Source: a virus
Lineage: Duplodnaviria; Caudoviricetes
Length of the DNA stretch: 56,155 nucleotides
Strand: one strand, 5' to 3'
IMG/VR virus record: IMGVR_UViG_3300032287_004275
Location: 1-56,155 of that record
Positions 1 to 6,304 of the stretch are shown here, one piece after another. The first letter of the stretch is position 1, and every line of letters starts with the position of its first letter. The notes beneath the pieces were generated by a model. It saw only the letters and a list, made by a program, of their open reading frames with translations, made no database searches and was not told where the DNA came from. The translations under genes were made by a program, and so were the position numbers.

Positions 1-23
1 AGTATAATTAAAAAATAAAGGTT

Positions 24-149
24 ATGACAAAAGCAGAGATAAAATTGATGAGGTTATTGATTAAACAAGAATTGGCTTGTGGGATTATTATAAATCCAAC
101 CCTATTAAGTGTATTGGAATTTGATGATTGTGTAATTAGATGGAATTAA
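24..149 (+). CDS. small hypothetical early protein (41 aa)
   Basis: Hand-translated MTKAEIKLMRLL...; preceded by right half of the early cassette motif and aaggttATG. Confidence 0.55.
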   Translation: MTKAEIKLMRLLIKQELACGIIINPTLLSVLEFDDCVIRWN

Positions 150-172
150 GGATTAAGTAGAGTAAAGTAGAG

Positions 173-197
173 TTCGTATATTTCAGTATAATTAAAA
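173..197 (+). promoter_or_regulatory. early promoter cassette TTCGTATATT-N5-ATAAWTAAAA
   Basis: Motif recurs at 173, 381, 868, 1171, 3481 (partial at 1 and 1984), each just before an ATG; resembles Bacteroidota -7 element TAnnTTTG. Confidence 0.7.
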
Positions 198-205
198 AGG
201 TAAAT

Positions 206-376
206 ATGAAATTAAGTTTAGAAGAATTAGATTTATTGGTTGACGGTTTAGATTTAGTATTAAGTCAAACCAATAAAGAATTAGATAGTAGAAGAGGTTT
301 TAAGGCTAAATTAGAAAAAATTAAAGTGATAAATAGTTTAGCTGTTAAATTAAGTTTGGAATTGGAGAGTAAATAA
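206..376 (+). CDS. small hypothetical early protein (56 aa)
   Basis: MKLSLEELDLLVDG...; follows promoter motif. Confidence 0.65.
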   Translation: MKLSLEELDLLVDGLDLVLSQTNKELDSRRGFKAKLEKIKVINSLAVKLSLELESK

Positions 377-380
377 GAAA

Positions 381-405
381 TTCGTATATTGTAGTATAAA
401 TAAAA
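381..405 (+). promoter_or_regulatory. early promoter cassette copy
   Basis: TTCGTATATTgtagtATAAATAAAA. Confidence 0.7.
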
Positions 406-513
406 ATGATGAAAATGAGATTAACAGAAACACAAGCTTGGGGAATTGCGATTATATTAGGTGGGATAATGGGAGTGATTTTATGGAATGTATTACTTAA
501 TATTATGATGTAA
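406..513 (+). CDS. small membrane peptide (35 aa)
   Basis: MMKMRLTETQAWGIAIILGGIMGVILWNVLLNIMM, one hydrophobic helix. Confidence 0.55.
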   Translation: MMKMRLTETQAWGIAIILGGIMGVILWNVLLNIMM

Positions 514-514
514 T

Positions 515-622
515 ATGAAAAAGTTAGGGTTTGAAAATATAGGGCAAGTAGGGATTGGTGTTTTGGTAATAGGTGGGATGATTGAATTTGTGATTTATGG
601 ATTGATGGTAAATGTGATTTAA
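515..622 (+). CDS. small membrane peptide (35 aa)
   Basis: MKKLGFENIGQVGIGVLVIGGMIEFVIYGLMVNVI, starts 1 nt after previous stop. Confidence 0.5.
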   Translation: MKKLGFENIGQVGIGVLVIGGMIEFVIYGLMVNVI

Positions 623-630
623 AATAATAT

Positions 631-758
631 AGTCAGGTGGCGGAATGGTAGACGCATGAATAAAGGTTAACATTAAAGATAACGCAGAGTAACCTCGAAA
701 AACCCGGTGCAAGTCCTGCTCATAAGTTATCATGCAGGTTCGAATCCTGCCCTGACTA
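631..758 (+). ncRNA. tRNA-like RNA (Leu-type D arm, intact acceptor and T arms, anticodon/variable region replaced by ~78 nt insert)
   Basis: Acceptor AGTCAGG(631-637)/CCTGACT(751-757); D arm GGCGGAATGGTAGACGC; T arm GCAGG-TTCGAAT-CCTGC (734-750); no canonical anticodon arm. Confidence 0.75.
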
Positions 759-784
759 CAATTAAGATACCGCTTCATAACGGT

Positions 785-840
785 TTTATCTTTTTTAATT
801 ATACAGCCCTGTGAGCCCGGTCACCCGGGCTTTCGGGGTC
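785..840. repeat. GC-rich hairpin repeat, copy 1
   Basis: TGAGCCCGGTCACCCGGGCTTTCGGGGTC (812-840) identical to 1495-1523; upstream tttatctttt..aattatac also shared. Confidence 0.9.
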
Positions 841-867
841 GGGGGGAATATGGGGTGCGAGGGTGGA

Positions 868-892
868 TTCGTATATTAAACCATAATTAAAA
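868..892 (+). promoter_or_regulatory. early promoter cassette copy
   Basis: TTCGTATATTaaaccATAATTAAAA. Confidence 0.7.
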
Positions 893-899
893 GAGCAAT

Positions 900-1169
900 A
901 TGACAAAATCAGAAATATTTAAAGACAAGTTTCCGGGGTTCAAGGGTGAGGTTGATGCCTGTAAGAGTGACCAATGGGGTGATACAAGTGATGTACTTGA
1001 TTTTATTGATGTGCCTAATAACCAAGTTAGATACACCTACTATTTTGTAGAGCAGTGTGGTTGCTGCCATGGTAGGGATGAAGACACTGAGACCCTAGAG
1101 TTTATGTTGGATGATATGTCAGATAATGAGTTTGAGGAGTTATGTAAGGACGTAATTAAGCGGCTTTAA
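900..1169 (+). CDS. acidic hypothetical early protein with CGCCH motif
   Basis: ORF track, promoter upstream. Confidence 0.75.
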   Translation: MTKSEIFKDKFPGFKGEVDACKSDQWGDTSDVLDFIDVPNNQVRYTYYFVEQCGCCHGRDEDTETLEFMLDDMSDNEFEELCKDVIKRL

Positions 1170-1170
1170 G

Positions 1171-1195
1171 TTCGTATATTGTGGTATAAATAAAA
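1171..1195 (+). promoter_or_regulatory. early promoter cassette copy
   Basis: TTCGTATATTgtggtATAAATAAAA. Confidence 0.7.
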
Positions 1196-1204
1196 ACGAG
1201 ACAT

Positions 1205-1462
1205 ATGATTAAAGTTGATTTTACAGTGAGCGATTTAGATGGTAATGTGGTTAAGACATACTCCCTAGACCTAGAGCCAAGCATGGTATTGATTGAGATG
1301 GATAACGCCCGAGAAGTATGGGATGAGTACCATGTGAGAGCCAAAAGTGATAACCCGATTGCTCCATTTGAGGTGTTCAAAGCCAAGACATACAAACAAG
1401 AAATGATGGAGCGCCAACACATGCTTGACATGCACGATGAGTGCTGTGGAGAAGATTGGTGA
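1205..1462 (+). CDS. hypothetical early protein
   Basis: ORF track, promoter upstream. Confidence 0.75.
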   Translation: MIKVDFTVSDLDGNVVKTYSLDLEPSMVLIEMDNAREVWDEYHVRAKSDNPIAPFEVFKAKTYKQEMMERQHMLDMHDECCGEDW

Positions 1463-1472
1463 TACCAAACGA

Positions 1473-1523
1473 TTTATCTTTTAATTATACGCCCTGAGCC
1501 CGGTCACCCGGGCTTTCGGGGTC
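1473..1523. repeat. GC-rich hairpin repeat, copy 2
   Basis: 29-nt identity with 812-840. Confidence 0.9.
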
Positions 1524-1540
1524 TAAAGTATAGACACAAC

Positions 1541-1708
1541 ATGACAACAGACACATTCATCAAGATCAATAGACCCAGAATCCAAAATATAGATGGTAAC
1601 CTAGATACAGCCACAATCACCATATTAACCCCAGATGGCAAGTTGGCGTTTTACTGGTTTGAAAATGGTGTGGTGGTAGGATCTAAGACCAAGGTACAAG
1701 GGTGGTAA
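1541..1708 (+). CDS. small hypothetical protein (55 aa)
   Basis: Hand-translated MTTDTFIKINRPRIQ...VQGW. Confidence 0.55.
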   Translation: MTTDTFIKINRPRIQNIDGNLDTATITILTPDGKLAFYWFENGVVVGSKTKVQGW

Positions 1709-1997
1709 TCCTGGTGCGGTACCGCCGTATATATATGGTATGCGTATGGTCATACATACCCACGCGCGCCGTTGTCAATACGGCGCGGGGTGGTGAGGAC
1801 CGGTGATTAGACACATTTACAAATCGAAAACGATCTTTCCACATCGACATTGTATATCTTTATATATTGAACTTGTTATCCCCCACAACCACACCCAAAA
1901 TCCCAAAATGCCAAAAAGGACAAAACCCCAAAAAAATCAAATCTTTCTTTTTTAAAAGATCTTTGGCATCGACATGGGATATACGTATATTTTAAAC
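1709..1997. other. structured non-coding locus (candidate origin, terminus or pac region)
   Basis: Clustered palindromes, direct repeat GATCTTT..CATCGACAT x2, phased CCAAAA tracts, G-rich to C-rich switch. Confidence 0.45.
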
Positions 1998-2105
1998 ATG
2001 ATAAAAAACATACTTAGGGTACCCGCATATTTCGCTATTGGTTTTATAACTATATTTTTATGTGCTCACCTAATTTTATTTGACATATGTATAATAAAAA
2101 AATAA
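1998..2105 (+). CDS. small hydrophobic peptide (35 aa)
   Basis: MIKNILRVPAYFAIGFITIFLCAHLILFDICIIKK; CGTATATT upstream. Confidence 0.35.
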   Translation: MIKNILRVPAYFAIGFITIFLCAHLILFDICIIKK

Positions 2106-2396
2106 ATGGCTATTTTTACATTTTACAACCCTTCCGGTTCCGCATATTTTACATTTGAAGGAGCTAATAGAAATACCAAGGGATTTTATGATTCTTCTTC
2201 AGTTAAATATGCTTCAGGATCATTTTCTTCATTTACAAGTTCAAATTCAGATTACATAGTTCAATCAGATTACATTTGGTCCCAAGTTATCCCACCAGGA
2301 ACATCAAGCTTTACATTTACACCAAGTATTGAAACCCCAGTAAGTGGTGTTTATTTTAGAGGAACAGGAGAATTTAATGTAACTATAGAAGTATAA
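2106..2396 (+). CDS. Ser/Thr-rich beta-strand virion-type protein
   Basis: MAIF start, SGS/TSS motifs, ATATGTAT late-type motif at 2085. Confidence 0.65.
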   Translation: MAIFTFYNPSGSAYFTFEGANRNTKGFYDSSSVKYASGSFSSFTSSNSDYIVQSDYIWSQVIPPGTSSFTFTPSIETPVSGVYFRGTGEFNVTIEV

Positions 2397-2410
2397 AATA
2401 GTATATACGG

Positions 2411-3235
2411 ATGGCAATTTACACATTAACAGCAGCACAAATTAGAGGAGCAGGAATTTATAATGGATTCATTATACCCTCTGGAGGTGGAAGTCTTGAC
2501 CCGGATGCACAAGCATTTTTAACTGCTACTGCAATTACAGACCCAACAATTTCAAGCGCGATTAATACATTTGTTGTTAGTTGGAAAAATTATGGCTTAT
2601 GGACAAAAAGCTATGCATTGTATCCATTGGTAGGTGGTACAAGTTCAACCCATAAATTTAACCTTAAAGATCCAAGAGATTTAGATGCAGCATATAGATT
2701 AGGGTTTAATGGTGGATGGACACATTCAAGTACTGGGATTTTACCTAATGGGGTTAATGCTTGGGCTAACACTTTTTTAGTTTCACAAGGAACACTTGGT
2801 TTAAATTCAACAAGTTTTGGAGTTTATTCAAGGACAAACAATGGCACGCAAAATGCACCTGCAATTGGAAATGTAACGGGTGCTGCTTCAGGAGAATGTT
2901 CTTTATGGTTAAATTTTGGAAATGTTGCATATTTAAGGGTTAACAGTGCAACTATTTCAAATACATCTAACTTTGATTCAAGAGGTTTATTTATTGCAAA
3001 TAGAGTAAATTCAACACAAGTACAATTACAAATTAGAGGAACACAAACTACATTTGCTAATATAAGTCAAAATACTTATACAAATCCTTTTCAATTAGGT
3101 GGAGTTAATCCAAATAATTTCGATAATAAAGAACTTGCATTCGCCTTTATTATGGATGGGTTAACAAGCCAAAATATGACCGATGCTAATACAGCAATAG
3201 TAGCATTCCAAACCGCATTAAGTAGAAACGTATGA
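2411..3235 (+). CDS. putative fibre/receptor-binding protein (lectin/LamG-like beta domain)
   Basis: DPDAQAFL...YPLVGG...HKFNLKDP module, N/T/S/G-rich beta composition, C-terminal FQTALSRNV. Confidence 0.5.
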   Translation: MAIYTLTAAQIRGAGIYNGFIIPSGGGSLDPDAQAFLTATAITDPTISSAINTFVVSWKNYGLWTKSYALYPLVGGTSSTHKFNLKDPRDLDAAYRLGFNGGWTHSSTGILPNGVNAWANTFLVSQGTLGLNSTSFGVYSRTNNGTQNAPAIGNVTGAASGECSLWLNFGNVAYLRVNSATISNTSNFDSRGLFIANRVNSTQVQLQIRGTQTTFANISQNTYTNPFQLGGVNPNNFDNKELAFAFIMDGLTSQNMTDANTAIVAFQTALSRNV

Positions 3236-3453
3236 TAGAAGTAGGACTTTTAACAGTAACCCAAAAAGATGAATTAGTAGGACAATCTTATGCTCCCGAT
3301 TCTTATTTTAATCCAATTCAAGACCTAAATAATAATTGGGTAATATCAATTGAAGAAATAAACCAATGTGTTAACCCTGATTTTTTATGGGTTAAAAATT
3401 TACCCATAATTGAATACGTTCCGAAACCTCCACCATTTCCTCCAATAATTTAA
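3232..3453 (+). CDS. small protein, probable partner or chaperone of the upstream fibre
   Basis: Coupled start; FNPIQDLNNNWVISIEE. Confidence 0.5.
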   Translation: MIEVGLLTVTQKDELVGQSYAPDSYFNPIQDLNNNWVISIEEINQCVNPDFLWVKNLPIIEYVPKPPPFPPII

Positions 3454-3480
3454 AAAAGAGCTTGGTTAACTAATCTTTTA

Positions 3481-3505
3481 TTCGTATATTTTAGCATAAT
3501 AAAAA
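3481..3505 (+). promoter_or_regulatory. early promoter cassette copy
   Basis: TTCGTATATTttagcATAATAAAAA then aaggttATG. Confidence 0.7.
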
Positions 3506-3515
3506 AATAAAGGTT

Positions 3516-3797
3516 ATGTTTGAAAATTTAGAAAAAATGAGCCAAGAAGACGCTCAAAGAAGATTAAAAGAATTGAATCGTGAAATTCGTAAACACGAAA
3601 TTGCTTTCGTATTATTCATTATTTTAGGAATCACAAATATTGTTTTTACAATTATTGGATTAATTTCTTTTAATGTTATATCCGTATTAATGGTTTTAGG
3701 ATGTGGTTTGGCATGTTATGGGATTGTTAAATATTCTGAACCGTTTGAATTAGAAAAATATTTTATCAAATTAATTTATGGAGAAAATGGAAAATAG
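3516..3797 (+). CDS. two-TM membrane protein
   Basis: Two hydrophobic stretches. Confidence 0.7.
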   Translation: MFENLEKMSQEDAQRRLKELNREIRKHEIAFVLFIILGITNIVFTIIGLISFNVISVLMVLGCGLACYGIVKYSEPFELEKYFIKLIYGENGK

Positions 3798-4029
3798 CAA
3801 ATATCAACCCTCAAGAAAAATTACAACAGCAGACGGAACTATAATGTTTATGTTTGATGGTAAATTGCATAATTGGGAAGGTCCCGCGTTAATACCTCAA
3901 GGAAATAATCGTTTACGTGAGTATTATTTAAATGGAATTAAATATACGGAGGAAGAGTGGAAGGAGCGATTGCGTACAAGAGAAGGTTTACCTTGGTATA
4001 AAGGTTCGGGAGCGCAAGCTAGATTTTAG
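3778..4029 (+). CDS. hypothetical with one GKLHxxxGPA (MORN-like) unit
   Basis: DGKLHNWEGPALI...EYYLNG. Confidence 0.7.
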   Translation: MEKMENSKYQPSRKITTADGTIMFMFDGKLHNWEGPALIPQGNNRLREYYLNGIKYTEEEWKERLRTREGLPWYKGSGAQARF

Positions 4030-4049
4030 AAAATAATAAAATAAAGGTT

Positions 4050-4502
4050 ATGCAACGTATTACACACAAAGAAGCTAAACAATATATTCCTTGTTCTGAA
4101 GATTATTCCAATAATCCACCTTCATATTTTACGGTTCAAGAACAAGAAGATGGTTGGGATGAAATAACGTATTACACGAGTAAAAAACGAGGTCTATATG
4201 TTGGCCGCGAGGGTGATGAATGGGTTTATATCTTATCAAATCCCGCGATACCTGATATGGTTAAAATAGGTTATACAAAAAATGATCCCCACAACAGAGC
4301 AACTCAAATTTCTAGAGGAACAGGTGTTCCAATGGGTTATGAGCTTGAATGGGCTTACAAGTGTTTTAAGGGTGAACGTATAGAACAAGAAGTTCATAAG
4401 TATTTTAAAAGTCAAAGAGTAAACCCACAAAGAGAATTTTTTAAAGTTTCTTTAGAAGAAGCTAAACAGGTTATAGAAAAAATAGGAGAAAAATATGTCT
4501 GA
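4050..4502 (+). CDS. T5orf172/MUG113-type GIY-YIG domain protein
   Basis: WVYILSNPA...VKIGYT...TGVP...E..VH...REFF. Confidence 0.85.
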   Translation: MQRITHKEAKQYIPCSEDYSNNPPSYFTVQEQEDGWDEITYYTSKKRGLYVGREGDEWVYILSNPAIPDMVKIGYTKNDPHNRATQISRGTGVPMGYELEWAYKCFKGERIEQEVHKYFKSQRVNPQREFFKVSLEEAKQVIEKIGEKYV

Positions 4503-4743
4503 TATTTATCAACAAATTGTAGATATGGAACTACAAGAACTAGAGATGAAAATTTCATCAATTCAAAATCAACTAATAATGGATTATGGGATGCTAGATG
4601 AGTTTTGGCAATACCACCCTGCAAATCCTGATTTTATCAATCCCATTAAAGCATATGATGATTTGAAAAAATCAATTGGGAATTTAGAAGCTAAATTAGC
4701 TGATATTGAAAGTAAAATTAATCATTTGAAATCAACGAATTAA
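4495..4743 (+). CDS. hypothetical coiled-coil protein
   Basis: ORF track. Confidence 0.65.
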   Translation: MSDIYQQIVDMELQELEMKISSIQNQLIMDYGMLDEFWQYHPANPDFINPIKAYDDLKKSIGNLEAKLADIESKINHLKSTN

Positions 4744-4784
4744 CGCGTGGATTTTATTTTGAAATTGTATATACATATAAAAGT

Positions 4785-5237
4785 ATGAATATAGGAAACA
4801 TATTTGCATTATTTGGGTCTAATGAAGGAGATAAGGAAGATAAAAAGCTAAAAAAAGATTTAGAAGCTTTTAAAGAAACCCCTCACTTTAAAGTTGGAAT
4901 GTTTATTAAAATGGTTTCTCAAGGTATGAGTTTTAAACATCAACTTTTAAATTTCTTTTCGAATGTGCATCCCAAAATGGATACTTCTGATTTAGGAGAA
5001 GCTGGGGATTTTATGATGTATAATAGAGCTTGGTTTTGGATTTCAGAATGTAATTTAAGGAAAAAAGATTGGAAATTAGCTTTACAGGATAAGGCTTCAG
5101 AAGATTTTATAGATTGTCTTGAAATAGTATTGCGTTATTTTGAAAATATAGAAGAGTATGAAAAGTGTGCTTTTCTTAAAAAAATACAAGATTTTATAAA
5201 AAAGTCATTAGTTAAAAAGGAAAACGTGACTTCCTAA
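4785..5237 (+). CDS. hypothetical with C-terminal UvrB/C (UVR)-like motif
   Basis: YFENIEEYEKCAFLKKI. Confidence 0.6.
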   Translation: MNIGNIFALFGSNEGDKEDKKLKKDLEAFKETPHFKVGMFIKMVSQGMSFKHQLLNFFSNVHPKMDTSDLGEAGDFMMYNRAWFWISECNLRKKDWKLALQDKASEDFIDCLEIVLRYFENIEEYEKCAFLKKIQDFIKKSLVKKENVTS

Positions 5238-5324
5238 AAGAAGGTTATTATCTTTAATTATATTTTAATATTTAACATTATTGAAATAATAAAGGTTGTA
5301 AAGAAAATAAGTAAATAAATAAAA

Positions 5325-5492
5325 ATGAAATATAAAGAATTAGTATTGAGACGTTTGGAGTCTCTAGAAAGTAAATTAAAACGAATGAGAAACGTTTTAA
5401 ATGAAAGAAATGTTGAAGCAGCCCGTCAAATCCTACAAGAGGTATTAGAATTAAGGGATGACACTCAATCTATTGTTGAAAGAGAAGATTAA
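5325..5492 (+). CDS. small helical protein (55 aa)
   Basis: Hand-translated MKYKELVLRRLESLESK...VERED, A-rich leader. Confidence 0.65.
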   Translation: MKYKELVLRRLESLESKLKRMRNVLNERNVEAARQILQEVLELRDDTQSIVERED

Positions 5493-5509
5493 TTAAAAAT
5501 AAATAAGTT

Positions 5510-6304
5510 ATGAATTTGACAGCCGAACAAATCCAAGATAATTGGAATGAATTAATGCGGGTTATTGAAACTAATATTTCATCACCACGTAAAGAAAAAT
5601 TAAAAGCATTTTATGAACAATATGCTGATCGTTTAATGTTAATGCCTGCCGCGCATAAAAAAGAATATCATAATGCTTTCCCTGGAGGATATGTAGAACA
5701 TGTTTTACGCGTTATTCGATGTGCTATTAAACAGGCTAATTTATGGGAAGATGAAGGAGCAGATATGTCTACTTTTACTACTGAAGAATTAATATTTTCA
5801 GCTCTAAACCATGATTTAGGTAAAATGGGATCTGAAGATGAAGATTCATATGTTCCCCAAACTGACCAATGGAGAAAAGATAAGTTAGGAGAGGATTACA
5901 TGTTTAATACTAAAGTACCATTTTCTTCAGTTCCAGATAGAGGATTATTTATGTTGCAATCCCATGGTATTCAGTATACATTTAATGAAATGATTGCTAT
6001 TCAAACACATGATGGTTTATATGATGAAGGTAATAAAAAATATCTTATGTCATTTATGCCGGAACAAAAACCAAGAACATCTTTACCTTTTATATTACAC
6101 CAGGCCGATTTAATGGCAGCACGAATCGAATTTGAACGTGAATGGTTACCTAAATTGAAAGAAGGTAAGAAGTCCGTGGATGCCGGAAAAGGGAATTTTA
6201 CATTGGGGAATAAACCAAACATGTCTAAGAAAACCTCAACAAAAGAGAAAGCATTAGGTTCATTTAAAAGCGAAGGTTTAAAAAATATATTTGATAATTT
6301 ATGA
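5510..6304 (+). CDS. HD-domain phosphohydrolase (YhaM-like)
   Basis: YHNAFPGGYVEH, NHDLGK, THDG, HQAD. Confidence 0.85.
   Translation: MNLTAEQIQDNWNELMRVIETNISSPRKEKLKAFYEQYADRLMLMPAAHKKEYHNAFPGGYVEHVLRVIRCAIKQANLWEDEGADMSTFTTEELIFSALNHDLGKMGSEDEDSYVPQTDQWRKDKLGEDYMFNTKVPFSSVPDRGLFMLQSHGIQYTFNEMIAIQTHDGLYDEGNKKYLMSFMPEQKPRTSLPFILHQADLMAARIEFEREWLPKLKEGKKSVDAGKGNFTLGNKPNMSKKTSTKEKALGSFKSEGLKNIFDNL

What the first reader, a model, noticed from the sequence alone, without database searches (positions are those of the whole stretch)
631..760. tRNA mimic with no anticodon arm and a nested second T-loop
Seen: perfect acceptor stem, Leu-like D arm and T arm, but 656-733 is a 78-nt insert. The insert can pair GATAAC(678-683)/GTTATC(726-731) and GCAG/CTGC. 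It contains a second T-loop-like GGTGCAAGTCC (706-716) and a Met-loop-like CTCATAA (719-725). It is too short for a group I intron or tmRNA. Inference: an RNase P/Z-processed stable ncRNA, such as a decoy for tRNA-targeting defences, synthetases or Ro/Rtc-type proteins, expressed early.
Basis: partly seen in the sequence, partly recalled or inferred. Interest (0 to 1): 0.7.

Follow-up and report, generated by a model that had tools for sequence, protein, structure and literature searches.

The report
Leucine-tRNA-shaped phage RNA carrying a pseudoknot
This phage gene makes a small RNA that keeps the outer frame of a leucine tRNA but carries, in place of the codon-reading arm, a conserved folded RNA domain that many other phages place between tRNA genes or inside a tmRNA; what the domain does is unknown.

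Summary
Window 631-758 has a 7-bp acceptor stem, a Leu-type D arm and a T arm, and 656-733 is a 78-nt insert. ARAGORN misses it; the Rfam tRNA model scores 39.9 bits by skipping the insert.

It is neither a decaying pseudogene nor a spliced tRNA. I found 36 distinct versions in 54 phage loci. The frame helices carry compensatory changes and the insert is almost invariant.

The insert ("cargo 1") is an independent pseudoknotted RNA motif with no Rfam match. It also occurs:
- free-standing after a gene (Cellulophaga phage Nekkels_1);
- circularly permuted between tRNA genes;
- inside the unannotated tmRNA of Cellulophaga phage phi14:2, in a region reported as highly transcribed.

The same Leu-type frame carries about 120 unrelated insert clusters in other phage contigs.

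Two details fail. The "second T-loop" lies in the variable part of the motif, and the "Met anticodon loop" corresponds to a motif linker.

Best reading: a natural tRNA-scaffolded, non-decoding, trans-acting RNA, probably trimmed by tRNA enzymes. Its target is unknown.

This scan has already noted the scaffold family on other DNA. The closest known RNAs are T5 RNA1 and T4 RNA C/D. The identity and contexts of cargo 1 did not turn up in my searches of those notes.

The parts
631..637 (+). Acceptor stem, 5' strand (AGTCAGG)
   Evidence: Pairs with 751-757. In 36 homologues, 4 of 7 pairs show changes on both sides, e.g. AGTGAGG/CCTCACT and AATCAGG/CCTGATT.
638..655 (+). U8-G9 and the Leu-type D arm. 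D stem is 640-642/653-655; loop carries A14 A15 (644-645) and G18 G19 (647-648).
   Evidence: Rfam tRNA alignment. A matching D-arm stretch (GGTGGCGGAATGGTAGACGC) is found in genuine phage tRNA-Leu genes.
656..733 (+). Cargo 1: a 78-nt pseudoknotted domain that replaces the anticodon and variable arms
   Evidence: Covariance model R1 scores 66.8 bits, E 5.7e-16, on 656-709, though the window was in its training set. Homologues occur in four contexts.
658..675 (+). 'a' loop, GAATAAAGGTTAACATTA. In free-standing copies it is the loop of a covarying hairpin (P3).
   Evidence: The closing helix varies: GC/GC, GG/CC, AC/GT, GAC/GTC, AGC/GCT, CTATAC/GTATAG. In the tRNA-framed form only one U-A pair remains.
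664..669 (+). H1 pseudoknot, 5' strand (AGGTTA)
   Evidence: Pairs with 690-695. Pair 664:695 is A-U in 79, G-U in 4 and G-C in 1 of 84 distinct copies. GGGTTT/AAACCC in L339 and L330 changes both end pairs.
678..683 (+). H2, 5' strand (GATAAC)
   Evidence: Pairs with 726-731. Only G-U variants occur among tRNA-framed copies. The helix is fully different in free-standing copies: GAATAA/TTATTC, GAGACAC/GTGTCTC, CCACAC/GTGTGG, GCATAAT/ATTATGC, CCACCTC/GGGGTGG.
688..705 (+). 'b' module, AGTAACCTCGAAAAACCC. It contains the H1 3' strand, TAACCT, at 690-695.
   Evidence: The most conserved block of the family. Pattern AGTAACCTYGARANACCC; invariant columns.
706..716 (+). Variable loop or mini-hairpin (GGTGCAAGTCC). 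It stands where other copies have the Px helix.
   Evidence: Hypervariable among 36 tRNA-framed copies. Px is an 8-12 bp helix in 17 of 17 inter-tRNA copies, with 14 distinct sequences.
717..725 (+). 'c'-like module plus linker (TGCTCATAA)
   Evidence: Aligns with (A)GTGAAGCTG followed by TTAG or ATTAAA in free-standing copies. L024 and L033 read GTGAAGCTCATAA.
726..731 (+). H2, 3' strand (GTTATC)
   Evidence: See 678-683.
732..733 (+). Two-nucleotide joiner; T733 stands at the U48 position
   Evidence: Among the insert clusters listed, nearly all end in T directly before the T stem.
734..750 (+). T arm (GCAGG TTCGAAT CCTGC)
   Evidence: 3 of 5 pairs show changes on both sides: ACAGG/CCTGT, ACAAG/CTTGT, GTAGG/CCTAC, AAAGG/CCTTT.
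751..758 (+). Acceptor stem 3' strand (CCTGACT) and discriminator A758. No CCA is encoded; CAA follows.
   Evidence: The discriminator is A in 165 of 189 distinct AGTCAGG-frame copies; the next three bases are mostly CAA or CTA, and CCA in 7.
765..797 (+). Hairpin plus T-run: a likely intrinsic terminator of the RNA gene
   Evidence: The fold pairs 769-772 with 781-784 and is followed by TTTTTT at 791-796. The consensus scan flagged only the minus-strand reading of the same hairpin.

Best explanation
Window 631-758 is a gene for a non-decoding, leucine-tRNA-shaped scaffold RNA.

The frame. The acceptor stem, Leu-type D arm, T arm and discriminator A73 are under selection. The anticodon and variable arms are replaced by a self-contained pseudoknotted domain, cargo 1. 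Cargo 1 consists of:
- loop 'a' pairing with strand 'b' to form H1;
- helix H2, which joins the domain to the frame;
- conserved joining strands 'b' and 'c'.

Likely mechanism.
- Inferred: the transcript ends at the hairpin and U-run at about 765-797. RNase P cuts at 631. A 3' tRNA-trimming enzyme and the CCA-adding enzyme finish the end after A758. The tRNA frame therefore gives the cargo defined ends and tRNA-like stability, as engineered 'tRNA scaffolds' do.
- Shown by comparison: the same cargo is delivered in other phages as a helix-closed unit lying exactly between two tRNA genes, as a terminated unit after a gene, and as an internal domain of a phage tmRNA. The same frame carries about 120 other insert clusters. 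Frame and cargo are thus separable modules, and the cargo is the working part.
- Inferred: cargo 1 acts in trans by binding a partner. I think a protein or RNA of the translation/tRNA machinery, or a host defence factor, is most likely.
- Possible: because the frame keeps the bacterial LeuRS identity set, the RNA may also be leucylated.

The target is not known.
For: 1. The frame is real and selected. RF00005 scores 39.9 bits. Among 36 distinct homologues, 99.7% of cells are paired and 9 pairs change on both sides, against 2.1 in shuffles (0 of 500).

2. The cargo is conserved as strongly as the frame (invariant columns). Its helices covary once free-standing copies are included:
- H2 is entirely different in sequence yet complementary in L048, L055, L067, L068, L081, L085, L091 and L110.
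- P3 shows at least 2 contiguous pairs in 20 of 21 free-standing rows listed.
- Px is 8-12 bp in 17 of 17 inter-tRNA copies, with 14 distinct sequences.
- H1 appears as GGGTTT/AAACCC in L339 and L330.

3. Contexts:
- Of 111 motif instances, I classed 53 as tRNA-framed, 32 as permuted (type B), 6 as type A, 2 as ambiguous between A and B, and 18 as unclassed.
- In 11 loci a tRNA starts 33-45 nt after the 'b' anchor. Upstream tRNA 3' ends lie 3-7 nt before Px.
- In Nekkels_1 the motif lies between a gene and a terminator.
- In phi14:2 the motif at 4239-4390 lies inside a tmRNA at 4031-4500 (ARAGORN; RF00023 46 bits, E 1.4e-16). Model R1 scores it 64.6 bits although it was not in the training set.
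- That intergenic region was reported as more highly transcribed than most genes and as persistent (bioRxiv 10.1101/2020.03.07.982082; passage read).

4. Modularity of the frame:
- 262 frame instances gave 187 distinct inserts in 122 clusters, with up to 6 per locus.
- L117 has the same frame with another cargo, followed 6 nt later by a free-standing cargo 1.
- Cargo clusters 1 and 2 have their own compensatory pairs.

5. Leu identity. U8, A14, A15, G18G19, U48, the T loop and A73 are all present. These are the elements named for bacterial LeuRS, and deleting the anticodon stem-loop cost only a 2.5-fold loss of tRNA affinity for Aquifex LeuRS (PMC2377443; abstract and passages read).

6. Classical stable RNAs of the same build exist: T5 RNA1 and T4 rnaC.
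Against: - There is no expression or processing data for this phage.
- The mature ends, CCA addition and aminoacylation are all inferred.
- The whole-molecule fold is not more stable than shuffles (z -0.76).
- Within the tRNA-framed copies, H1 and H2 are nearly invariant: 5 of 6 and 3 of 6 pairs never vary. Their support therefore comes from the free-standing relatives and from my own module-anchored scripts, not from an independent statistical test such as R-scape.
They are biased and are not abundances.
- No conserved protein neighbour points to a partner. A metallophosphoesterase-like ORF lies near the motif in only 15 of 111 loci and has no Pfam hit.
- A binding function has no direct support of any kind.
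Confidence: 0.7

Rival explanations
1. Cargo 1 is a new small self-cleaving ribozyme. Its job would be to cut polycistronic tRNA transcripts or mRNA 3' ends, much as HDV-like theta ribozymes trim phage tRNA trailers. The tRNA-framed copy would be a variant of that processing device.
For: - Small size, a pseudoknot, about 35 near-invariant junction nucleotides, and natural circular permutation (types A and B) are all typical of self-cleaving ribozymes.
- It is restricted to phages. Only 2 of 56 genome contigs pattern hits carry the motif, both on Bacteroidota MAG contigs (one 577 nt, one 4,119 nt).
- It abuts tRNA genes.
- Theta ribozymes next to phage tRNAs are a precedent (PMC10879173; search listing and abstract only).
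Against: - No Rfam ribozyme family matches, even at E up to 10.
- The tRNA-framed form lacks the Px helix. Self-cleavage there would break a frame that is otherwise under strong selection.
- Residence inside a tmRNA body also fits poorly with cleavage.
- RNase P and 3' trimming already account for release at tRNA borders.
- No cleavage site can be named.
Confidence: 0.12
2. One reading: the RNA is a tRNA mimic that acts as a decoy for tRNA-targeting defence nucleases, for aminoacyl-tRNA synthetases, or for Ro/Rtc-type proteins.
For: - The frame keeps the full LeuRS identity set.
- Type II tRNAs are known targets of anti-phage nucleases, and phage tRNAs can counter them (PMC13096335 and PMC11555353; search listings and abstracts only).
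- The locus type lies in tRNA arrays.
Against: - Cargo 1 also works without any tRNA frame (Nekkels_1 and the inter-tRNA copies).
- The same frame carries about 120 unrelated, individually conserved cargo clusters. A plain decoy of one tRNA would not need them.
- The parts of a tRNA that such nucleases cut, the anticodon loop and the variable arm, are exactly what is missing.
- Rfam YrlA does not match the window at E up to 10.
Confidence: 0.1
3. It is an intron-containing tRNA. Removal of the extra sequence would leave a tRNA with anticodon CAU (stem ATAAC/GTTAT, loop CTCATAA) or a tRNA-Leu.
For: - CTCATAA closed by ATAAC/GTTAT looks like a canonical anticodon arm.
- With introns allowed, ARAGORN of 205 frame-plus-cargo sequences as intron-bearing tRNAs.
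Against: - Two separate excisions would be needed: about 22 nt at 656-677 and 35 nt at 684-718. The product would have a Leu-type D arm, a 3-nt variable loop and a CAU anticodon.
- The intron-mode ARAGORN calls give inconsistent anticodons for near-identical sequences (Met, Phe, Ser, Leu, Gly, Trp).
- The insert is far too short for a group I intron.
- Homologous copies exist with no tRNA at all.
- The 'loop' is homologous to a motif linker.
Confidence: 0.03
4. It is a decaying pseudo-tRNA, or a miniature tmRNA that would read the short frame ATG AAT AAA GGT TAA TAG TAA.
For: - The 5' part of the insert has a 4-codon frame followed by three stops.
- Cargo 1 sits inside a real tmRNA in phi14:2.
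Against: - The insert is as conserved as the frame in 36 distinct copies, so it is not decaying.
- There is no G3:U70 pair (U3-A70 here).
- ARAGORN and Rfam detect no tmRNA.
- The ATG is missing in all free-standing copies (GAAAAAAGGTTAA) and reads ATA in L024 and L029.
- Host Bacteroidota tmRNAs are not matched by the cargo model.
Confidence: 0.02

Closest known systems
Phage T5 RNA1 (NC_005859 30501-30644, annotated 'tRNA-like stable RNA with unknown functions')
   Same: Leu-type D arm (GCCGGAATTGGTAGACGG), a T arm, an acceptor-like helix and an insert of about 85 nt where the anticodon and variable arms should be. It lies in the phage tRNA region and is annotated as a stable RNA.
   Different: Frame sequence and insert are unrelated to those of the window. 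The cargo model R1 found nothing in the T5 stretch (best E 3.4). Function is equally unknown.
Phage T4 RNA C / RNA D (rnaC, NC_000866 70908-71046; rnaD 71053-71171)
   Same: Small stable RNAs encoded at the end of the tRNA cluster. rnaC has a T arm (CCGGG TTCGAAT CCCGG) and an acceptor-like 3' end on a 139-nt body. Their functions are still described as unknown (PMC9697503; passages read).
   Different: No Leu-type D arm is evident and there is no similarity to cargo 1 (R1 best E 1.5). They are classed as late RNAs in T4.
Engineered tRNA scaffold for recombinant RNA (Ponchon and Dardel; recalled. Related paper PMC3753655 seen only as a search listing and abstract start)
   Same: The anticodon arm is replaced by an RNA of interest, so that the chimera is processed and stabilised like a tRNA. 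That is the architecture seen here.
   Different: It is man-made and uses other tRNA bodies. The cargo is attached through a plain helix, whereas here a 22-nt 5' strand from the D arm takes part in a pseudoknot.
tmRNA (RF00023), in particular the unannotated tmRNA of Cellulophaga phage phi14:2
   Same: A tRNA-like domain carrying pseudoknotted internal domains. In phi14:2 the cargo 1 motif itself is one of these domains, directly 3' of the tag stop codon.
   Different: The window RNA has no G3:U70, no long P2 helix, no PK1 and no credible tag frame. It has a full D arm of Leu type, and neither ARAGORN nor Rfam calls it a tmRNA.
YrlA / bacterial Y RNA-like RNAs (RF02553)
   Same: Non-coding RNAs with a tRNA-like module joined to a second functional module; some are phage-encoded (recalled).
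   Different: The topology is reversed, as recalled: in YrlA the ends lie in the Ro-binding stem and the tRNA-like acceptor is closed. There is no Rfam match in the window at E up to 10. Only sub-threshold YrlA hits (31-35 bits against a gathering score of 69) fall on ordinary tRNAs in other loci.

Membership tests
Canonical decoding tRNA (RF00005) | 7-bp acceptor stem, D arm and T arm with a TTCRANT loop | tested here: met
   (39.9 bits against a gathering score of 29); covariation.
Canonical decoding tRNA (RF00005) | Anticodon arm (5-bp stem, 7-nt loop) directly after position 26, and a variable region of normal size | tested here: not met
   78 nt lie between the D and T arms. Rfam skips 69 nt. 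ARAGORN finds no tRNA. No pairing partner for 657-661 is present in the right place.
Phage Leu-tRNA-shaped scaffold RNAs (unnamed class; T5 RNA1 type) | Leu-type D arm, T arm, A73 and an acceptor stem, with an insert replacing the anticodon and variable arms | tested here: met
   The same build is seen in T5 RNA1.
Phage Leu-tRNA-shaped scaffold RNAs (unnamed class; T5 RNA1 type) | The same frame recurs with unrelated inserts, often several per phage and beside tRNA genes | tested here: met
   187 distinct inserts in 122 clusters, up to 6 per locus. tRNA arrays lie around them. The window itself holds only one copy.
Phage Leu-tRNA-shaped scaffold RNAs (unnamed class; T5 RNA1 type) | Accumulates as a discrete stable RNA | not testable with these tools
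   No RNA run could be listed for the window. Stability is annotated only for T5 and T4.
tmRNA (RF00023) | G3:U70 in the acceptor stem, tag reading frame, P2 helix and PK1 | tested here: not met
   The pair is U3-A70. ARAGORN and Rfam give no tmRNA hit.
Intron-containing tRNA (group I or bulge-helix-bulge) | Removal of one intron restores a canonical cloverleaf | tested here: not met
   No single excision does so. ARAGORN intron-mode calls are mutually inconsistent. Bulge-helix-bulge motifs were not searched formally.
Known riboswitch, ribozyme or sRNA families of Rfam 15 | The covariance model reaches its gathering score on the insert or on its free-standing relatives | tested here: not met
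   Searches found only tRNA matches above gathering score; nothing above gathering score overlaps the motif.

The most novel reading that the evidence does not exclude
The Leu-tRNA-shaped frame is more than a stabiliser. It is an aminoacylatable handle: LeuRS ignores the anticodon arm, so leucylation is possible. Phages would use this handle to bring exchangeable RNA domains to the translation apparatus. Cargo 1 is also built into a phage tmRNA and into tRNA transcripts, and would be a ribosome- or rescue-factor-binding module. The roughly 120 other cargo clusters would then form a cassette library of RNA effectors, swapped between phages by recombination in the constant frame.
Probability: 0.12. 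Interest if true: 0.9.

Novelty: new variant of a known kind. Interest (0 to 1): 0.66.

Why it matters
Phage tRNA regions have held "stable RNAs of unknown function" since the T4 and T5 era.

This locus shows that one such build, a leucine-tRNA frame without an anticodon, is widespread in uncultivated phages. It also shows that the build is modular, and that its commonest cargo in this sample is itself an uncatalogued structured RNA. That cargo occurs in two groups of cultured Cellulophaga phages (Nekkels_1 and phi14:2).

The question therefore becomes testable at the bench. The same domain can be studied free, between tRNAs, in a tRNA frame and inside a tmRNA.

If the cargo binds a host factor, this would be a natural counterpart of the engineered tRNA-scaffold aptamer. 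It would also be a new kind of RNA-based takeover or anti-defence tool.

On the practical side, standard tRNA finders either miss these genes or, in intron mode, mislabel them.

Tried and rejected
- 23S rRNA mimicry. I recalled that GAAAGACCC resembles the 2057-2065 region. Shared k-mers between three cargo 1 forms and E. coli rrlH are at chance level: the longest shared word is reached by 28, 159 and 53 of 300 shuffles. Rejected.
- Homology of cargo 1 to the host tmRNA region after the tag. By eye, ACCTCGAAAGC and GAATTATAGTAAGAT in Flavobacterium and Aquimarina tmRNAs look similar. Model R1 gives no hit in three Bacteroidota tmRNAs. Left as an untested resemblance.
- The mini-ORF MNKG followed by stops. 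Rejected: the ATG is absent from free-standing copies.
- GCAG/CTGC helix. Not conserved.
- Isolated phages. blastn of the window RNA found only the Nekkels phages over the insert, plus D-arm and T-arm fragments. A type B query found nothing. The Synechococcus phage hit I read (S-B64) is an ordinary unannotated tRNA-Leu; for S-H35 I fetched only the annotation table, which has the same layout.
- RNA-seq. No RNA holder was listed for window 1-6000.
- The pattern GTGAAGCTGN{25,55}AAAGGTTA in viral contigs gave almost only chance matches. Only 5 of 110 matches had TAACC downstream, and none was a true motif.
- Conserved protein neighbour. The commonest neighbour cluster, a metallophosphoesterase-like ORF, lies near the motif in 15 of 111 loci at varying distance and has no Pfam hit. 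I judged this to be synteny rather than partnership.
- Column-based pair counts for the inter-tRNA form (alignment A2) were not usable, because MAFFT put Px and S out of register. I used row-wise helix finding instead.
- Free-standing copies of other cargos. A blastn screen found none beyond frame copies my regular expression had missed.
- Literature. Eight searches listed no paper whose title or abstract start described a natural tRNA-framed cargo family or this motif; none of the listed papers was opened for this question. Supplements were not consulted.
Full report
**What is there**

The window is an IMG/VR viral contig of 56,155 bp, about 30% G+C, with a CheckV completeness estimate of 35%. 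Its genes mark it as a T4-like myovirus fragment: major head protein, portal, large terminase, prohead protease, baseplate wedge and PhoH.

At 631-758 on the + strand the sequence has these parts:
- a perfect 7-bp acceptor stem, 631-637 with 751-757;
- U8;
- a D arm of the bacterial tRNA-Leu type, 640-655;
- a T arm, 734-750;
- discriminator A758.

The 78 nt at 656-733 stand where a tRNA would have about 22-40 nt. ARAGORN calls nothing in the window. The whole-window Rfam gathering search lists nothing. A sensitive search of 500-900 matches the tRNA model at 39.9 bits (gathering score 29) by skipping 69 nt. A hairpin and T-run follow at about 765-797.

**It is conserved, not decaying**

Pattern scans of viral contigs with pieces of the insert brought in 54 loci with the same construct, 36 of them distinct in sequence. 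On that alignment:
- 99.7% of pair cells are standard pairs;
- 9 of 27 pairs have changes on both sides, against a shuffled mean of 2.1, and no shuffle of 500 reaches 9;
- slid controls pair at 27-40%.

The compensatory changes lie in the acceptor stem (4 of 7 pairs) and the T stem (3 of 5 pairs). The insert is nearly invariant except for one loop.

In related phages the gene often lies on the same strand as ordinary tRNA genes and within a few hundred bases of them. Three copies (L028, L031, L080) have an extra base or a mismatch in the 3' acceptor strand; I kept them in the alignment. Two copies (L020, L041) carry an extra hairpin in the D loop.

**The insert is an independent RNA motif (cargo 1)**

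The weak blastn hit to Cellulophaga phage Nekkels_1 turned out to be the same domain without any tRNA frame. There it lies between the stop codon of a gene and an intrinsic terminator.

In genome contigs it gave 56 hits, of which only L131 and L158 carry the rest of the motif; both are Bacteroidota MAG contigs, one of 577 nt and one of 4,119 nt. Among all matches held at that point:
- 62 had the upstream AGGTTA and a T arm;
- 48 had AGGTTA but no T arm;
- 69 lacked AGGTTA, and I treated these as chance.

The motif has three conserved blocks:
- 'a': AAAGGTTA;
- 'b': AGTAACCTYGAAAGACCC, followed by GAAG;
- 'c': (A)GTGAAGCTG.

It has four helices:
- H1 is a pseudoknot between AGGTTA and TAACCT (window 664-669/690-695). 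Pair 664:695 is A-U, G-U or G-C. In L339 and L330 the helix reads GGGTTT/AAACCC, changing both end pairs.
- H2 (window 678-683/726-731) differs completely in sequence, yet stays complementary, in the free-standing copies.
- P3 closes the 'a' loop in free-standing copies and covaries. In the tRNA-framed form it is reduced to one possible U-A pair.
- Px closes the other side. It is 8-12 bp in all 17 aligned inter-tRNA copies, with 14 different sequences. In the tRNA-framed form it shrinks to a variable loop.

It is present in this exact form in only 4 of 36 copies.

The forms are circular permutations of one another:
- Type A is open at H2/P3 and closed at Px.
- Type B is open at Px and closed at the hairpin that carries 'a'.

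**Contexts all point to release as a discrete RNA**

Type B copies sit in tRNA arrays. In 11 loci the next tRNA begins 33-45 nt after the start of 'b', which is a few bases after Px. Where an upstream tRNA is visible, its 3' end lies 3-7 nt before Px.

Type A copies end at terminators. The tRNA-framed copies use the tRNA body.

There cargo 1 (4239-4390) lies inside an unannotated tmRNA at 4031-4500:
- ARAGORN reports the tag GSSVQKLAMVA*.
- RF00023 scores 46 bits against a gathering score of 47, E 1.4e-16.
- The motif starts directly 3' of the tag stop codon.

A covariance model of the a-to-b segment, built without phi14:2, scores it 64.6 bits. It finds nothing in three host-type Bacteroidota tmRNAs, nor in the T4 and T5 tRNA regions.

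The phi14:2 preprint reports that the g004-g005 and g005-g006 intergenic regions are transcribed above most protein genes, from the earliest sample onward, and calls them long non-coding RNAs of unknown function (10.1101/2020.03.07.982082; one passage read). This is the only expression evidence that bears on the motif, and it is indirect for the window.

**The frame is a general carrier**

In L117 the identical frame holds a different 89-nt insert and is followed 6 nt later by a type B cargo 1.

- 262 frame instances;
- 187 distinct inserts;
- 122 sequence clusters, a handful of which are genuine tRNA-Leu genes with other acceptor stems;
- per locus: one copy in 122 loci, two in 36, three in 10, four in 8, and six in 1.

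ARAGORN in default mode called 39 of 205 distinct frame-plus-insert sequences as tRNAs with assorted anticodons. I inspected 22 sequences: 21 of those 39 calls plus one comparison tRNA-Leu. The four with proper anticodon arms were the genuine tRNA-Leu genes, all with other acceptor stems. None of the AGTCAGG-frame (or near-variant) sequences had a 5-bp stem with a 7-nt loop in the right place.

Two other cargo clusters show their own conserved helices with compensatory pairs. Rfam found only tRNA above gathering score in ten such loci, 61.6 kb in all.

These counts come from scans that fixed the frame or the cargo, so they show diversity and not frequency. In 99 frame-selected loci, cargo 1 itself appeared three times, each time as a divergent type B copy.

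**Function**

Shown by comparison:
- a selected tRNA frame;
- a selected, structured and portable cargo;
- placement that would let tRNA enzymes, or a terminator plus a closing helix, define the ends.

Inferred:
- RNase P cleavage, 3' trimming and CCA addition;
- stability;
- action in trans.

The frame keeps every element named for bacterial leucine identity: A73, U8-A14, A15-U48, G18G19 and the T loop. [quoted passage not shown] Leucylation is therefore possible but unproven.

I found no conserved protein neighbour and no known RNA family. My best guess is a binding RNA aimed at the translation/tRNA machinery or at a defence factor. A self-cleaving ribozyme is the main rival because of the permutations and the phage-tRNA setting. 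The intron, pseudogene and mini-tmRNA readings are unlikely, for the reasons given in the Rival explanations section.

**Known relatives and novelty**

Earlier notes of this scan describe the Leu-tRNA-shaped frame with exchangeable inserts on other phage DNA. My results agree with them and were obtained independently before I read them.

Their lead to T5 holds up. T5 RNA1, annotated 'tRNA-like stable RNA with unknown functions', has a Leu-type D arm, a T arm and an insert of about 85 nt. T4 rnaC has a T arm and an acceptor-like end on a 139-nt body. RNA C and RNA D are still described as of unknown function (PMC9697503; passages read).

The kind is therefore known as a curiosity but has not been characterised. 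What did not turn up in my searches of those notes is the identification of this window's cargo as a widespread, permuted, uncatalogued pseudoknot motif that is also present in cultured Cellulophaga phages and inside a phage tmRNA. None of the eight literature searches listed a paper whose title or abstract start described such a natural tRNA-framed cargo family or the motif; I did not open the listed papers on this point. Subscription-only papers and supplements were not seen.

Noticed in passing
L420 (NC_021806, Cellulophaga phage phi14:2) 4031-4500: The record has no RNA annotation here. ARAGORN calls a 470-nt tmRNA (tag GSSVQKLAMVA*) and Rfam tmRNA scores 46 bits (gathering 47), E 1.4e-16. 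This is the g005-g006 intergenic region that the phi14:2 preprint reports as a highly expressed 'long non-coding RNA' of unknown function. A second GTGAAGCTGTA element lies at about 4434.
   Followed up: partly
window 800-880: A G+C-rich, strongly folding stretch (AGCCCTGTGAGCCCGGTCACCCGGGCTTTCGGGGTCGGGGGG...) in a genome of about 30% G+C. It lies just after the terminator-like hairpin and before the first longer ORF at 900. The fold of 756-900 has z -2.9 (2 of 200 shuffles as stable). Its nature is unknown.
   Followed up: partly
L020:12465-12617 (-) and L041:227-385 (+): Two tRNA-framed cargo 1 copies carry an extra hairpin of about 22-30 nt inside the D loop. An earlier scan note reports elbow hairpins in another family of phage tRNA mimics.
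   Followed up: no
L117:4480-4721: One phage has the Leu-type frame with a different 89-nt cargo, followed 6 nt later by a free-standing type B copy of cargo 1. Frame and cargo therefore co-occur as separate modules in one array.
   Followed up: partly
L032, L034, L047, L373 (frame GGTTGGG.../...CCCAACC): A second acceptor-stem variant of the Leu-type frame carries a conserved 107-nt cargo (4 loci, 2 distinct sequences). L368 holds six frame genes within 8.5 kb.
   Followed up: no
L416 (MH107246, Synechococcus phage S-B64) about 1199-1283: An ordinary tRNA-Leu(UAA) gene that is not annotated in the S-B64 record. The S-H35 record (KY945241) has the same blastn hit and the same annotated gene layout at the equivalent place, but I did not read its sequence.
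   Followed up: partly
L048:231-1490 and relatives (15 of 111 motif loci): An ORF of about 400 aa lies near cargo 1 in both type A and tRNA-framed loci, at distances from 41 nt upstream to several kb downstream. It is annotated as calcineurin-like phosphoesterase in Nekkels_1. In the one sequence I printed (the L012 relative) GNDxxH and NHD motifs are visible by eye. It has no Pfam hit. The link is probably synteny.
   Followed up: partly
window 4050-4502: A 150-aa ORF whose C-terminal part matches PHROG families that include homing and HNH-type endonucleases. It may be a mobile nuclease in the early region.
   Followed up: no
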